A stretch of 5,062 nt of DNA from a virus. Taxonomy: Duplodnaviria > Heunggongvirae > Uroviricota > Caudoviricetes. This document shows positions 2,015 to 4,694 of this stretch, one piece after another (position 1 is the first letter of the stretch; each line of letters starts with the position of its first letter). The notes below the pieces were generated by a model, which searched no databases, had not been told where the DNA came from, and was given only the letters and a program-made list of their open reading frames with translations. The position numbers and the translations under genes are program-made. The DNA is taken from IMG/VR virus record IMGVR_UViG_3300012974_000295; one strand, written 5' to 3'.

Positions 2015-2377
2015 TTAATGACCTGCTGCGCGGAGTTTTCCGTCAGGTTCACCGGCAAGAGTCAGTAATTGTCCCTGGTCTTCCTGCAGAATAGTCAGGC
2101 GACCACCGCGATTGACATACATCGGCGTTTCGGTGGTGTCTTCTTCGGAAATTTTCCCGCGGTTAGTCGGGCGAACATATGAGAGTTTGTGTTTGATTTT
2201 CACACGGTTCTCATCAAATGGTTCGATTTCCAGGTTGAGTGAGACCTTACCTTTGGTTTTCGTGTTCATCACACCTGAAGCGACTTCACTGAGAACTGCG
2301 CCGATTTTGGTTTCAAATACGCCGCCGTCCAGCTCCCCGATAAATGCCTGCACATCAGTACTGCGTTCGCTAGCCAT
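2015..2377 (-). CDS. yfdP: YfdP-like phage protein, 120 aa; first gene of the leftward early operon
   Basis: The track ORF extends to 2563, but the 62-codon N-terminal extension is Cys/His/Arg/Pro-rich and coincides with the leader hairpins. The internal ATG at 2377 (MASERSTDVQ...) has GAGGAG 7 nt upstream and gives 120 aa, matching my recollection of K-12 YfdP. TAA stop at 2017-2015. Confidence 0.65.
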   Translation of the reverse strand: MASERSTDVQAFIGELDGGVFETKIGAVLSEVASGVMNTKTKGKVSLNLEIEPFDENRVKIKHKLSYVRPTNRGKISEEDTTETPMYVNRGGRLTILQEDQGQLLTLAGEPDGKLRAAGH

Positions 2378-2425
2378 TTTGCTGCTCCTCATCATATCGA
2401 CCCTGCAAGGTCGGTTGGTTTCTCC

Positions 2426-2514
2426 ACAAAACAGAGAAGAACACCTGCGGTGGCAGCCGCCCGGATGGATTGGGTTATGAGCCCGTCGTCCGGTGATGCT
2501 CTTCTCTGTTTTGT
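2426..2514 (-). repeat. Long inverted repeat (15 bp perfect, 16/17 extended) enclosing a 55-nt GC-rich core; predicted compound RNA hairpin in the yfdP 5' leader
   Basis: 2426-2442 ACAAAACAGAGAAGAAC is the reverse complement of 2498-2514 GCTCTTCTCTGTTTTGT with one mismatch. The core contains nested small inverted repeats (GCGG/CCGC 2447-2460, GGG/CCC 2472-2484, CCGG/CCGG 2461-2493). The element ends 49 nt upstream of the yfdP ATG. Confidence 0.5.
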
Positions 2515-2560
2515 AAAAAGAGCGGTACCAGCCGGAAGCAAGTGTACAAACTGGTACCGC
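2515..2560 (-). terminator. Candidate intrinsic terminator within the early-left leader (minus strand)
   Basis: Perfect 10-bp stem GCGGTACCAG / CTGGTACCGC (2522-2531 and 2551-2560, 7/10 GC) followed on the minus strand by UCUUUUU (2521-2515). The 19-nt loop is larger than typical. There is no U-tract on the plus strand, so any activity is minus-strand specific. Confidence 0.4.
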
Positions 2561-2985
2561 CAAAGCAGTGGCTGTTGTGGTGACCGGTGCTGATCTCCGG
2601 CTTGCGGTTATTTCAGACTCTCACGGGTGTTTAATTGCCCCGCCGAACAGCTCTTTTCCGCAATAGCTGCAATGTCTTTCGCGCATCAGCCTGCGCATTC
2701 ACCACAACGTTGAGAGCACTTAGCCAGTTACGGCACCACACTTTGTCGCGGTTCCATAAATGCCCTCATCGTTGCACCCTGGTCTCTTCCCAGGTGTCAA
2801 ACCGAACCGCCACGCTGGTTAGGCGTCTTATCAGCATCATCATTGACTTGCACATTCCGGCTACCTGGTTTGTTTGCCCGAGCAAGGAGTGGATTGTCCC
2901 CTTTAACGTCCCCAGACCGCTAACGACGCATGTGCCATACGCCGTGTTACAACCAAATTTTGTTAGTACCTTGTTTGTTGGTCTG
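2561..2985 (-). ncRNA. Candidate structured noncoding leader or ncRNA transcribed from the pL-like promoter (no N-like ORF present)
   Basis: Every minus-strand frame is broken by stops every 10-60 codons. The only long ORFs (2635-3003 plus, 2766-3044 minus) are Arg/Cys/His/Thr-rich and not protein-like. By hand count the region is about 55% GC against roughly 30-40% for the adjacent repressor gene. Several local inverted repeats are present (e.g. GGTCTGG 2980-2986 with CCAGACC 2912-2918). Boundaries are approximate. Confidence 0.3.
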
Positions 2986-2991
2986 GAAAGA

Positions 2992-3020
2992 AAGATAAAA
3001 TGAAGTTGCGCATTATGCAA
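2992..3020 (-). promoter_or_regulatory. pL-like early-left promoter (candidate)
   Basis: On the minus strand, TTGCAT (3020-3015, inside an operator site) is followed by a 17-nt spacer and TATCTT (2997-2992). Predicted start is near 2985, reading toward yfdP. Confidence 0.4.
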
Positions 3021-3044
3021 GTGTTTTTGTTGCGAGATATGCAA
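3006..3044. promoter_or_regulatory. OL-like operator pair: two 15-bp imperfect palindromes
   Basis: TTGCGCATTATGCAA (3006-3020) and TTGCGAGATATGCAA (3030-3044) have centres 24 bp apart. They share the TTGCG...GCAA pattern with the sites between the cI-like and cro-like genes. Confidence 0.5.
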
Positions 3045-3050
3045 TTTGAT

Positions 3051-3079
3051 GGGTAATGAAAAGCCACCTTCGGGTGGCT
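3051..3079 (-). terminator. Intrinsic terminator downstream of the repressor gene (minus strand)
   Basis: 7-bp stem AGCCACC / GGTGGCT (3062-3068 and 3073-3079) with a 4-nt loop, followed on the minus strand by UUUUCAUU. It lies about 20 nt beyond the repressor stop codon. The plus-strand tail is not U-rich. Confidence 0.55.
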
Positions 3080-3099
3080 AATTGATGAGGAGGTAAGGG

Positions 3100-3792
3100 T
3101 TAATTGTGTCGCTTAAGGGTTTGTGACTGGCTGATTAAGACCTTTCCAAAGACCATAAACCGGTGTTCATTTTCGCTGGTAATTCCCCATTCACGGTAAA
3201 TCTGGTTATCAGAAATCACCAGTAGTTTGTCAGGTATCATTTGCAGTCGTTTGACATAAATTTTATCATCAAAACCAAATACATAGATACCATCTCCATC
3301 AAACTGATTGATACTGACATCAACGAAGATGAGATCTCCTGGCTCAATGGTTGGACACATACTGTCCCCACGAACGTTGATTACTTTAATGTGATTTGCT
3401 GGCCGTCCGCCAAACATCGATACAGCATTATCAGTTCTGTATTCAATGGCATGAATCACATCAATGACATCACCGCCCTGGATAAGGCCATTTCCCGCAC
3501 TGGCACTGATATCCAGCATTTCAATACGGAATACATCCTTCACCTGCGCAACATCCTCACTAATACTGTTTTTACATACAGTATTACTTTTGAAGTCTGA
3601 GGTAAAGAGATCAGCAATATCAACACCTAAGCTCCTGGCAATATTACTCAGGGCTTGTTCAGTGAATTGTTTCTGCTTACCTGTTTCCAGGCGCGAGATA
3701 TTTGCCGCATCCACTCCTATTGCTTCAGCGAGATCGGCGATTTTCATGTTCTTCGCTTGGCGAAGTTGTCTGACTCGATTTCCTATGTTCAT
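3100..3792 (-). CDS. cI-like prophage repressor: N-terminal XRE-type HTH plus C-terminal LexA-like S24 peptidase autocleavage domain (230 aa)
   Basis: N-terminus RVRQLRQAKNMKIADLAEAIGVDAANISRLETGK is a classic HTH. The C-terminal domain has the Ser-Lys dyad context (VRGDSMCPTIEPGDLIFVD and YVKRL) and a candidate Ala-Gly cleavage site (SASAGNG). It is divergent from the cro-like gene. There is no SD upstream of the ATG at 3792. Confidence 0.85.
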   Translation of the reverse strand: MNIGNRVRQLRQAKNMKIADLAEAIGVDAANISRLETGKQKQFTEQALSNIARSLGVDIADLFTSDFKSNTVCKNSISEDVAQVKDVFRIEMLDISASAGNGLIQGGDVIDVIHAIEYRTDNAVSMFGGRPANHIKVINVRGDSMCPTIEPGDLIFVDVSINQFDGDGIYVFGFDDKIYVKRLQMIPDKLLVISDNQIYREWGITSENEHRFMVFGKVLISQSQTLKRHN

Positions 3793-3798
3793 GCGTTT

Positions 3799-3827
3799 AT
3801 TACATTTCTTTATTGCGCGTTAAGCAA
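3799..3827 (-). promoter_or_regulatory. PRM-like promoter for the repressor gene, predicted to give a leaderless mRNA
   Basis: On the minus strand, TTGCTT (3827-3822) is followed by a 17-nt spacer and TGTAAT (3804-3799). The -10 ends 6 nt before the ATG at 3792, so the predicted start is at or next to the A of the ATG, as for lambda cI from PRM. The -35 overlaps operator site 3813-3827. Confidence 0.35.
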
Positions 3828-4150: not shown

Positions 4151-4694
4151 GCATCACTGGAAAGTGGAAAAACAGCCTGAGTGGTACGTGAAAGCTGTCA
4201 GAAAAACTATCGCGGCGTTGCCGGGGGGTTACGCTGAAGCTGCTGAGTGGCTGGATGTAACAGAGAACGCTTTATTCAACCGCCTTCGTGCAGATGGCGA
4301 TCAGATTTTCCCGCTGGGATGGGCAATGATTTTACAGCGCGCTGCTGGCACTCACTACATTGCGGATGCTGTCGCACAGTCTGCTGGTGGGGTGTTTGTA
4401 TCGCTTCCTGAAATTGAGGAAGTAGAGAACGCCGATATAAACCAGCGCCTGCTGGAAGTCATCGAACAAATCGGGAGTTACTCAAAGCAGATTCGTTCGG
4501 CAATCGAAGATGGGGTAGTGGAGCCACACGAGCAGACAGCAATTAATGATGAGTTGTATCTGTCAATTTCGAAGCTCCAGGAGCATGCGGCACTGGTCTA
4601 CAAAATTTTCTGCGCTCCAGAAAAGAGTGACGCCCGCGAGTGTGCAGCTCCGGGCGTCGTGGCGTTTTGTGTCTGTGGAGAAACTAACGCATGA
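4143..4694 (+). CDS. cII-position regulatory protein (183 aa); possibly a CII-like/CP76- or YdaT-like regulator
   Basis: GTG start at 4143 with AGGAG (4131-4135) 7 nt upstream, translationally coupled to the cro-like gene. Protein-like composition with a possible HTH around AEWLDVTENALFNRLRADG. Function is inferred mainly from gene position; family assignment is unverified. Confidence 0.55.
   Translation: MGKHHWKVEKQPEWYVKAVRKTIAALPGGYAEAAEWLDVTENALFNRLRADGDQIFPLGWAMILQRAAGTHYIADAVAQSAGGVFVSLPEIEEVENADINQRLLEVIEQIGSYSKQIRSAIEDGVVEPHEQTAINDELYLSISKLQEHAALVYKIFCAPEKSDARECAAPGVVAFCVCGETNA
4619..4658 (-). terminator. Candidate minus-strand intrinsic terminator inside the 3' end of the cII-position gene (oop-like antisense RNA terminator)
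   Basis: Perfect 8-bp GC-rich stem GACGCCCG / CGGGCGTC (4629-4636 and 4651-4658), with an extra GAG/CTC pairing inside the loop. On the minus strand it is followed by ACUCUUUUCU (4628-4619). On the plus strand a U-run starts only 6 nt after the stem. Confidence 0.35.

What the first reader, a model, noticed from the sequence alone, without database searches (positions are those of the whole stretch)
2426..2514. 15/17-bp inverted repeat forming a large compound hairpin just upstream of the yfdP ribosome-binding site
Arms 2426-2442 and 2498-2514 are complementary over 17 positions with one mismatch (15 contiguous perfect), which is very unlikely by chance in this length of sequence. The 55-nt core carries nested small stems. 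The element ends 49 nt before the yfdP start. It could be an RNase III processing site, like the N-leader site in lambda, or a translational control structure. A DNA-level role (protein binding site or small palindromic repeat element) is an alternative; it did not match REP or ERIC consensus as I recall them.
Basis: seen in the sequence. Interest (0 to 1): 0.6.

Follow-up and report, generated by a model that had tools for sequence, protein, structure and literature searches.

The report
Conserved tRNA-like phage RNA hairpin
The inverted repeat is real and is one copy of a widespread, undescribed structured RNA of temperate enterobacterial phages: a long double-stranded stem capping a tRNA-like three-way junction whose invariant loop copies the anticodon arm of initiator tRNA; it is not a control element specific to yfdP.

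Summary
On the minus strand, 2519-2421 folds into a 25-bp stem (P1) that closes a three-way junction. P2 carries an invariant 23-nt loop and P3 is a variable hairpin.

Sixty-seven distinct copies from at least 15 enterobacterial genera keep this fold: 96% of cells are paired and 10 pairs show compensatory changes. Wobble pairs show that the minus strand is the RNA strand.

The loop shares 14 contiguous nt with the E. coli initiator-tRNA anticodon arm. Rfam and ARAGORN find nothing.

The element starts inside the U-tail of a published, RACE-mapped sRNA (sRNA-17, minus strand 2709 to about 2517). It sits in the PL leader ahead of whichever gene comes first: yfdP, rdgC-like, yfdR-like or xis-like.

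Short-stem relatives that end in CCA occupy the last slot of tRNA arrays in Klebsiella-type phages. Long-stem relatives alternate with tRNA-derived, STnc100-like modules in P1 plasmids.

Best reading, with the mechanism inferred: a tRNA-derived RNA module whose long duplex is an RNase III-type processing or insulating site. Its invariant loop would be a recognition surface for an unknown partner.

yfdP-specific translational control is not supported.

The parts
2421..2519 (-). H1, the finding: a compound hairpin forming a three-way junction RNA. P1 is 2519-2495 paired with 2445-2421. J1/2 is A2494. P2 is 2493-2489 paired with 2465-2461. P3 is 2460-2457 paired with 2450-2447. J3/1 is A2446.
   Evidence: MFE fold. 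Covariation on 67 distinct copies. Covariance model R1 scores 114.5 bits on the minus strand against 43.6 on the plus strand.
2466..2488 (-). Near-invariant 23-nt P2 loop, CGACGGGCUCAUAACCCAAUCCA. It contains a GGG/CCC mini-stem with the 7-nt loop CUCAUAA. Fourteen contiguous nt (CGGGCUCAUAACCC) are identical to the anticodon arm of E. coli initiator tRNA metZ.
   Evidence: Invariant columns in A1 and A2. Longest common substring with metZ is 14 nt.
2523..2562 (-). Hairpin T. Together with the U-run 2519-2515 it is the intrinsic terminator and mapped 3' end of sRNA-17. The U-run doubles as the outermost 5' strand of H1.
   Evidence: Fold. The 3' RACE and 'full length' primers of PMC7719688 Table S2 map here. 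A GC-rich hairpin plus U5-7 sits at this position, with varying sequence, in most of the 50 non-redundant copies.
2517..2709 (-). sRNA-17, a published 193-nt sRNA of mEp460-like prophages. It is an STnc100-like, tRNA-derived multistem closed by GUUGUGGUG/CACCACAAC, followed by terminator T.
   Evidence: PMC7719688 text and primer table. Sub-threshold Rfam STnc100 hit on the ST64B homologue (35 bits).
2703..2776 (-). H2, a second long-stem hairpin of the same family. The stem is 2776-2759 paired with 2720-2703 (17 pairs, 1 mismatch). Its 3' strand runs into the 5' end of sRNA-17 (C2709).
   Evidence: MFE fold. Stem sequence is homologous to H1 and to the P1-plasmid hairpins.
2781..2958 (-). Module A. 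This leader segment is about 80% identical to DNA that directly follows tRNA-Ile(CAU) in P1-like plasmids.
   Evidence: blastn; sequences.
2398..2413 (-). Small GC hairpin CGACC-UUGCAG-GGUCG between H1 and the yfdP ribosome-binding site.
   Evidence: Folds. Equivalent hairpins with different sequence occur in other copies.
2015..2377 (-). yfdP coding sequence (SD GAGGAG at 2390-2385). It is the first early-left gene in this phage.
   Evidence: ORF list; phrog_204; mEp460 annotation.
3006..3044 (.). Two exact operator-like palindromes TTGCR-N5-YGCAA (3006-3020 and 3030-3044), read as OL. A third near-match lies in the cI-cro region at 3813-3827. A candidate PL, TTGCAT-17-TATCTT, lies on the minus strand at 3019-2991.
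   Evidence: Pattern search. The promoter is an inference from reading the sequence.
3062..3079 (-). Terminator after the cI-like repressor gene.
   Evidence: Terminator scan. SfII annotates the equivalent site as a terminator.

Best explanation
H1 is one copy of a conserved, modular, tRNA-derived structured RNA carried by temperate phages and phage-plasmids of Enterobacterales.

Shown:
- It is a three-way junction made of an acceptor-like stem P1, an arm P2 that presents an almost invariant initiator-tRNA-type anticodon loop, and a variable hairpin P3.
- The fold is kept by compensatory changes.
- The RNA strand is the minus strand.
- It begins in the U-tail of the mapped sRNA-17 terminator.
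- It heads the early-left operon whatever the first gene is.

Inferred:
- It is made only when RNA polymerase reads through that terminator, starting from PL or from the sRNA-17 promoter.
- Its 20-25 bp duplex is then cut by RNase III, as in the lambda N leader, at sib, or at rRNA processing stalks.
- That cut would separate the upstream sRNA from the early-left mRNA, give the mRNA a defined 5' end, and release the tRNA-like core.
- In late-operon relatives the same core would be released by the tRNA-processing route instead, because there the stem is 7 bp, ends in CCA, and sits one tRNA spacing after the last tRNA.
- The invariant loop is the recognition surface for an unidentified partner.
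For: - Structure: 96.0% of 2278 pair cells are standard pairs, against 40-50% when partners are slid. Ten pairs and 114 cells change on both sides. None of 500 shuffles reaches the covariation score.
- Strand: a U.G wobble at pair 24-102 in 62 of 67 copies, and further G.U pairs. RACE of sRNA-17 is on the same strand.
- Stem: 20 uninterrupted pairs plus 5 more here.
- Independence from yfdP: the first downstream gene is yfdP-like in 92 loci, RdgC-like in 16, yfdR-like in 10, and something else in 2.
- Same core in another processing context: the late-type copies checked with ARAGORN lie 4-6 nt after the last tRNA of an array, at the same spacing as between the tRNAs. They have a 7-bp P1 followed by invariant CCA.
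- Family: long-stem homologues alternate with tRNA-derived modules in P1-like plasmids, and a second one (H2) precedes sRNA-17 in the window.
- The RACE 5' end of sRNA-17 (C2709) lies inside H2's stem and one nt from the base of its acceptor-like helix, which fits processing.
- Loop: 14-nt identity with the metZ anticodon arm.
- Prevalence: 2490 of 5426 complete E. coli genomes.
Against: - No cleavage data of any kind were available.
- RNase III does not explain why the 23-nt loop is invariant.
- Most copies carry a conserved mismatch in mid-stem (pair 16-110 is unpaired in 41 of 67). RNase III tolerates this, but it shows that a perfect duplex is not what selection maintains.
- The stem sequence is itself conserved beyond what pairing requires. 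That could reflect recent common descent or a sequence-specific partner.
- In the RS218 lysogen yfdP is almost silent (0.5 reads), so the element is rarely transcribed in the prophage state.
- The tRNA ancestry rests on local features only. Global alignment to tRNAs is not significant (z 0.2-2.3).
Confidence: 0.4

Rival explanations
1. A trans-acting tRNA mimic. The released core acts on its own as a decoy or ligand through the initiator-tRNA-like anticodon loop. Targets could be a tRNA-fMet-directed nuclease, MetRS, or the 30S P site. On this view the long stem is only packaging.
For: The loop is invariant across genera while P3 and the flanks vary freely. It shares 14 nt with the metZ anticodon arm, including the three G-C pairs and U33-CAU. 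Late-type copies look like free-standing tRNA-sized RNAs with a CCA end inside tRNA arrays. CAU and the GGG/CCC pairs are also kept in the diverged P1-plasmid copies.
Against: There is no evidence that the core accumulates. The window copy has no CCA end. There is no T-arm or D-arm. No partner is known. The link to VapC-type nucleases comes from memory and is not a test.
Confidence: 0.2
2. A relic. H1 would be a decaying piece of a tandem array of tRNA genes and hairpins, kept only by linkage and recent spread, with no function of its own.
For: The whole 2378-3099 leader is a mosaic of segments found next to tRNA genes elsewhere. H2's cargo differs. The motif GUGGAGAA after H1 looks like a truncated GUGGUGAAU start of a lost downstream module.
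Against: Compensatory changes in P1, P2 and P3, and an invariant loop across at least 15 genera while neighbouring sequence is replaced. The core also persists in three different genomic contexts.
Confidence: 0.1
3. A cis-acting modifier of transcription. It would be either a put-like antiterminator RNA acting on downstream terminators of the early-left operon, or a structure that shields the long untranslated leader from Rho.
For: No ORF in the roughly 600-nt stretch between OL and the first early-left gene matched a phage protein family, and that stretch contains a terminator. P2 and P3 are adjacent stem-loops separated by 0-1 nt, which loosely recalls put.
Against: There is no sequence similarity to the HK022 early region. 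A closing helix is present, which put lacks. H1 lies after, not before, the leader terminator and about 460 nt from OL. No second copy was found in the part of the PR operon covered by the window. Late-type copies sit in Q-controlled operons.
Confidence: 0.08
4. A DNA-level element: a cruciform or hairpin site for a recombinase or other protein, or a recombination hotspot that shuffles modules.
For: Mosaic breakpoints cluster at the module edges (2562/3, 2708/9, 2964). Stems are conserved while the cargo varies among family members.
Against: Pairing depends on G.U wobbles that become A.C mismatches on the other strand. The sense-strand model score far exceeds the antisense score, although the model was built from the sense strand. 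No recombinase is linked to the element.
Confidence: 0.07
5. A yfdP-specific translational control structure.
For: It lies 49 nt upstream of the yfdP start. One MFE fold pairs 2573-2562 with the yfdP SD/AUG, bracketing T and H1.
Against: Downstream genes differ between phages. H1's own stems do not touch the RBS. K-12 yfdP has no H1. The 2562/3 breakpoint separates the putative anti-SD segment from H1 in many phages.
Confidence: 0.05

Closest known systems
RNase III processing hairpins of lambdoid phages (lambda N-leader site, sib) and rRNA processing stalks
   Same: A near-perfect duplex of 20 bp or more, located in the PL transcript between the leader and the first early-left gene. The stalk encloses a structured RNA, as with 16S and 23S rRNA.
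   Different: No sequence relationship was found. Cleavage is untested. H1 carries a conserved three-way-junction cargo with an invariant loop, which those sites lack. The comparison with lambda and rRNA rests on established knowledge, not on a tool result.
tRNA and tRNA-like RNAs (initiator tRNA; bacterial Y-RNA-like YrlA; viral TLS; mascRNA)
   Same: Anticodon-arm identity of 14 nt with tRNA-fMet. Relatives have a 7-bp acceptor-like stem plus CCA and occupy a tRNA slot in arrays. Like YrlA, the element combines a long terminal stem with a tRNA-like domain.
   Different: There is no D-arm and no T-loop consensus. ARAGORN and the Rfam tRNA and YrlA models do not detect it. In YrlA the long stem replaces the anticodon arm, whereas here it extends the acceptor stem (YrlA architecture from memory).
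sRNA-17 (PMC7719688) and the STnc100/PasD family (RF02076)
   Same: Immediate neighbour and co-transcribed. H1's 5' end overlaps the 3' U-tail of sRNA-17. Both belong to the same phage ncRNA arrays and both appear tRNA-derived.
   Different: H1 lies outside the mapped sRNA and has no Rfam match. Its fold is different (a three-way junction with a CAU loop). No paper found here describes it.
HK022 put antiterminator RNA
   Same: A protein-independent structured RNA in the early leader of a lambdoid phage that lacks an obvious N gene. Both have two adjacent stem-loops.
   Different: See the membership test: closing helix, position, sequence and absence of a partner copy all differ.

Membership tests
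RNase III processing site | About two helical turns (20 bp or more) of near-perfect dsRNA in the transcript | tested here: met
   20 contiguous pairs plus 5 A-U/G.U pairs. The stem is kept by covariation.
RNase III processing site | rnc-dependent staggered cleavage in vivo or in vitro | not testable with these tools
   No end-mapping data for 2421-2519 were available.
RNase III processing site | Absence of antideterminant base pairs in the proximal and distal boxes | not tested
   The rules were not available in any tool, and memory is insufficient.
tRNA / tRNA-like RNA | Cloverleaf recognised by tRNA detectors | tested here: not met
   ARAGORN finds 0 genes in the window. There is no Rfam tRNA-clan hit on H1 or on late-type copies.
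tRNA / tRNA-like RNA | 7-nt anticodon loop with U33 on a G-C-rich stem | tested here: met
   GGG-CUCAUAA-CCC; 14-nt identity with metZ.
tRNA / tRNA-like RNA | 7-bp acceptor stem followed by (N)CCA | tested here: not met
   The window copy has a 25-bp stem followed by GGAGAAAC. The feature is met only in the late-type relatives (CAGGCC[A/G]CCA).
tRNA / tRNA-like RNA | T-arm (GGUUCGAAUCC type) and D-arm | tested here: not met
   P3 is a variable hairpin without T-loop consensus, and there is no fourth arm. Other hairpins of the family do carry T-arms.
HK022 put RNA | About 70 nt, two stem-loops, no closing helix | tested here: not met
   H1 has a 25-bp closing helix. The put description is from PMC9378689.
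HK022 put RNA | Sequence similarity to putL/putR, with paired copies in the PL and PR operons | tested here: not met
   No blastn match to the HK022 early region. R1 finds only one copy in the window.
REP/ERIC-type dispersed repeats | Many copies dispersed in core-genome intergenic regions | tested here: not met
   Median of 1 and maximum of 5 places per genome; 3309 chromosomal places in 2490 genomes. Every copy whose surroundings were inspected lies in prophage DNA. K-12 CPS-53 has none.
Intrinsic terminator | GC-rich hairpin followed directly by a U-run | tested here: not met
   H1 is followed by GGAGAAACCAAC. The terminator is the separate hairpin T upstream.
STnc100 (RF02076) | Match to the covariance model | tested here: not met
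   No hit on H1 at E<=10. The family does match the neighbouring module in ST64B and in P1 plasmids.

The most novel reading that the evidence does not exclude
H1 and its short-stem relatives are phage-encoded mimics of the initiator-tRNA anticodon arm. They would be excised from early-left transcripts by RNase III, or from tRNA arrays by tRNA-processing enzymes. They would then act in trans, for example as decoys for host nucleases that cleave tRNA-fMet (VapC/MvpT type) or as ligands of the 30S P site or MetRS. They would be part of a wider, unrecognised class in which phage sRNAs (sRNA-17, STnc100, PasD) and their spacer hairpins all derive from tRNA arrays.
Probability: 0.12. Interest if true: 0.85.

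Novelty: new variant of a known kind. Interest (0 to 1): 0.6.

Why it matters
A structured RNA present in nearly half of complete E. coli genomes, and in prophages of at least 15 enterobacterial genera, has no Rfam family. It is currently annotated as nothing or as spurious 'hypothetical proteins'.

Its invariant loop reproduces exactly the features that mark initiator tRNA: CAU, U33 and three G-C pairs. That points to a specific molecular partner and to testable hypotheses on phage manipulation of translation or of tRNA-directed defence.

It also changes how a published virulence-associated sRNA (sRNA-17) should be read. Its terminator is fused to this element, and its 5' end lies where a tRNA-like precursor would be processed.

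Finally, it suggests that the STnc100/PasD/sRNA-17 group of prophage sRNAs descends from tRNA arrays.

Tried and rejected
- Rfam scans of the window found nothing relevant. The full scan at E<=1 gave 0 hits, and the 2380-3060 scan at E<=10 gave only chance miRNA and ribozyme fragments.
- ARAGORN found no tRNA.
- HK022 put: there is no similarity and the architecture differs.
- boxA/nut reading of CGCUCUUUUUACAA at the terminator: rejected, because GCUCUUU is not conserved among copies.
- Hammerhead reading of CUGAUGA in the late-type P2: rejected, because it is absent from early-type copies and there is no GAAA core.
- Protein-coding reading: the plus-strand 47-aa ORF 2450-2593 matches phrog_3651. 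However, element lengths of 99, 100, 101, 102, 103, 118, 122, 124, 125 and 126 nt break any reading frame, so that family is best explained as annotation of conserved non-coding DNA. The 182-aa TTG ORF 2563-2015 is yfdP with a spurious extension.
- Conserved small ORF starting at (A/G)UG-GAG-AAA after P1: no SD and no conserved continuation.
- 933W: a canonical STnc100 sits downstream of stx2B and is not preceded by an H-type hairpin. The hairpin is therefore not an obligatory part of STnc100 genes.
- Hits to the core pattern outside Enterobacterales lack the stems and fall in unrelated sequence, so they are chance matches.
- Global alignment of the late-type copy to neighbouring phage tRNAs is not significant.
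- RS218 genome record: not in the collection. Mapping was done through the paper's primers instead.

Full report
**Setting**

The window is the immunity and early-left region of an mEp460/SfV/cdtI/ST64B-type lambdoid phage. It is 99.9% identical to phage PhiR63_1 and 98% identical to mEp460 over 2380-3100.

- On the minus strand lie yfdS, yfdR, yfdQ and yfdP (2377-2015), and a cI-like repressor (3792-3100).
- cro-like and ymfL-like genes run rightwards.
- Between the repressor and yfdP lie 722 bp in which no ORF matched a phage protein family.
- A terminator follows cI (3079-3062).
- Two exact palindromes TTGCR-N5-YGCAA (3006-3020 and 3030-3044), of the same type as one in the cI-cro spacer, mark OL.
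- I infer a leftward PL (TTGCAT-17-TATCTT, 3019-2991) from reading the sequence.

**Observation**

The repeat is there as described, and it is longer than reported. On the minus strand 2519-2421 forms a 25-bp stem P1. This is 20 uninterrupted pairs, 2514-2495 with 2445-2426, plus five A-U/G.U pairs that join the U-run 2519-2515 to GGAGA 2425-2421.

P1 closes a three-way junction:
- P2 (CCGGA/UCCGG) carries a 23-nt loop.
- P3 (GCGG/CCGC) is a small hairpin.

Evidence for this comes (-76.2 kcal/mol, z -6.6). A perfect 15-bp stem exceeds every one of 60 dinucleotide shuffles, whose maximum was 12.

**It is a conserved structured RNA**

The core pattern GACGGGCTCATWAYCCAATCCA retrieved more than 120 viral contigs. 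In species-representative genomes it retrieved copies in Escherichia, Shigella, Citrobacter, Enterobacter, Kosakonia, Mixta, Leclercia, Phytobacter, Pseudescherichia, Raoultella, Pseudocitrobacter, Erwinia, Pantoea, Klebsiella and Buttiauxella. Matches in other phyla lack the stems and are chance.

Results on 67 distinct copies (A2), tested against the proposed structure:
- 96.0% of cells are paired, against 40-50% when the partners are slid.
- Ten pairs and 114 cells change on both sides. Examples are G-C/C-G at pair 14-112 (45/22), C-G/A-U at 9-117 (39/20) and G-C/A-U at 31-55 (42/17).
- No shuffle out of 500 reaches the observed covariation score.

P3 ranges from 14 to about 50 nt with unrelated sequences, yet it always folds as a hairpin.

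A U.G wobble at pair 24-102 in 62 of 67 copies, together with other G.U pairs, identifies the minus strand as the RNA strand.

Element lengths of 99 to 126 nt in steps that are not multiples of three rule out the plus-strand ORF annotated in mEp460 (gp36). That ORF matches phrog_3651 only because the DNA is conserved.

The element is present in 2490 of 5426 complete E. coli genomes, with a median of one copy. Every copy whose surroundings were inspected lies in prophage DNA. K-12 CPS-53 has lost it.

**The loop**

The 23-nt P2 loop is nearly invariant. It contains GGG-CUCAUAA-CCC. Fourteen contiguous nt are identical to the anticodon arm of E. coli initiator tRNA metZ.

From textbook knowledge, the three G-C pairs plus CAU are the initiator hallmarks. 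Diverged copies keep U33-CAU and the three pairs.

**Neighbour upstream: a published sRNA**

Sun et al. 2020 (PMC7719688) mapped a 193-nt sRNA, sRNA-17, by RACE and Northern blot. It lies in the mEp460-like prophage of E. coli K1 RS218. Their 'full length' primers place it on the window's minus strand from C2709 to about 2517.

Hairpin T (2562-2523) plus the U-run is therefore an experimentally supported terminator and 3' end. H1 begins inside that U-tail.

T and H1 travel together. Dozens of loci share homology starting exactly at 2562/3, with unrelated sequence upstream. Most of the 50 non-redundant copies have a GC-rich hairpin plus U5-7 at this place, of varying sequence, and a few have none.

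H1 can therefore be transcribed only by read-through. In the RS218 lysogen yfdP is almost silent, and it rose 95-fold in their deletion/cassette mutant.

**Not tied to yfdP**

The first gene after H1 is yfdP-like in 92 loci, RdgC-like in 16, yfdR-like in 10 and other in 2. H1's own stems do not involve the yfdP SD or AUG.

**Relatives in other contexts**

(i) Late operons of Klebsiella-type lambdoid phages. These copies lie between Q and the lysis genes.
- The same P2 loop sits in a 70-nt three-way junction with a 7-bp P1 followed by invariant CCA.
- The junction starts 4-6 nt after the last tRNA of an array (Arg-tct, Asn-gtt, Thr-tgt or Phe-gaa), at the same spacing as between the tRNAs.
- Evidence: - Model R1 finds these copies at 38-41 bits.

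(ii) P1-like plasmids. The spacer between trnT and tciA is a tandem array of units.
- Each unit is a long hairpin followed by an STnc100-like multistem.
- The hairpin stem reads ACAACAGGUAAGRGCA.../...UGCYCUUACCGUUGUG and is homologous to H1's P1.
- Two of the hairpins carry CAU-loop cargo (35.8 and 29.4 bits). Another carries a perfect T-arm, GGGUUCGAAUCCC.

(iii) The window itself holds a second family member, H2 (stem 2776-2759 paired with 2720-2703), whose 3' strand runs into sRNA-17.

The multistem closed by GUUGUGG...CCACAAC matches Rfam STnc100 at sub-threshold in ST64B and in the P1 plasmids. In some phages the same helix encloses canonical D- and T-arms (L099 and L105), so it is tRNA-derived.

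Segments of the window's leader also recur directly 3' of tRNA-Ile and tRNA-Thr in P1-like plasmids.

The conserved GUGGAGAAAC after H1 resembles the GUGGUGAAU that starts such a module. This suggests that H1 has lost its downstream partner.

**Mechanism**

Shown:
- the fold;
- the RNA strand;
- the fusion to a mapped terminator;
- independence from the downstream gene;
- membership of a hairpin family that punctuates arrays of tRNA-like RNAs.

Inferred:
- The long duplex is an RNase III-type processing or insulating site in read-through (PL) transcripts.
- Cutting it would separate the sRNA from the early-left mRNA and release the tRNA-like core.
- The late-type core would be released by tRNA processing instead.
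- The 5' end of sRNA-17 (C2709) lies inside H2's stem, one nt from the base of its acceptor-like helix. That is where RNase III or RNase P would be expected to cut.

The invariant loop needs a separate explanation, namely a specific partner, and this is the main gap. I give this composite reading 0.4.

Rivals and their weights:

| Rival | Confidence |
|---|---|
| Trans-acting tRNA-fMet anticodon-arm mimic | 0.2 |
| Non-functional relic | 0.1 |
| put-like or anti-Rho role | 0.08 |
| DNA-level site | 0.07 |
| yfdP-specific translational control | 0.05 |

**Known or new**

Rfam 15 has no family for it. The sRNA-17 paper stops at the terminator. The 2026 Pas-sRNA survey mentions only 'tRNA-like sequences' near prophage sRNAs and interprets them as integration scars.

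I found no description of this motif. It is a new RNA family of a known general kind: a tRNA-like structured RNA combined with a processing stem.

Noticed in passing
window 2517-2709 (-): This stretch equals the published sRNA-17 of E. coli K1 RS218 (PMC7719688). Its body is an STnc100-like multistem closed by GUUGUGGUG/CACCACAAC. The homologous helix in other phages (L099, L105) encloses canonical tRNA D- and T-arms, so sRNA-17, STnc100 and PasD look tRNA-derived. The RACE 5' end lies where RNase P would cut such a precursor.
   Followed up: partly
window 2703-2776 (-): A second long-stem hairpin (H2; 17 pairs, 1 mismatch) of the same family as the finding. The repeat finder missed it because of G.U pairs. 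Its cargo is unrelated to H1's.
   Followed up: partly
window 2562-2573 and 2372-2392 (-): The MFE fold pairs AGCCACUGCUUU, the single-stranded part of sRNA-17 just 5' of its terminator, with the yfdP SD/AUG region (GAGCAGCAAAAUGGCU). This might explain the 95-fold yfdP increase in the published delta-sRNA-17 strain, whose deletion (about 2566-2683) removes part of that segment but leaves hairpin T. Conservation was not checked.
   Followed up: no
window 2450-2593 (+), 2635-3003 (+), 2015-2563 (-): ORFs annotated as hypothetical proteins in mEp460 (gp36, gp37), and the extended yfdP ORF, overlap the structured RNA modules. They start with GTG or TTG. gp36 matches phrog_3651 only. They are probably annotation artefacts.
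   Followed up: partly
L179 (phage P1 NC_005856) 373-942, opposite strand to trnA/trnT: The P1 genes plp and upl are annotated antisense to the array of long hairpins and STnc100-like modules that follows tRNA-Thr. The RNA array may be the real content of this spacer.
   Followed up: no
window 3006-3044 and 3813-3827: Operator-like palindromes TTGCR-N5-YGCAA flank the cI-like gene and are read as OL and OR. No N-like ORF was recognised between OL and the early-left genes, so how PL transcripts pass terminator T is open.
   Followed up: partly
L023 3747-3825: An above-threshold Rfam isrJ hit (59.8 bits) lies just upstream of a four-tRNA array that ends with a late-type copy of the element.
   Followed up: no
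L100 12006-12060 (+): A weak second hit to the core of the model (21.7 bits, positions 20-82) in a contig that also has an early-type copy. It may be a late-type copy in the same phage.
   Followed up: no
L129 (K-12 CPS-53) 4247-4604: K-12 keeps yfdP but lacks T and H1. Homology to the window ends about 20 nt upstream of the ATG and is replaced by a run of GATTTTGACG-type repeats next to yfdO.
   Followed up: no
window 2398-2413 (-), and P3 loops in other copies: Hairpins with UUGCAG-type loops recur both as P3 (for example L105, L112, L134) and as the small hairpin between H1 and the RBS. Their significance is unknown.
   Followed up: no
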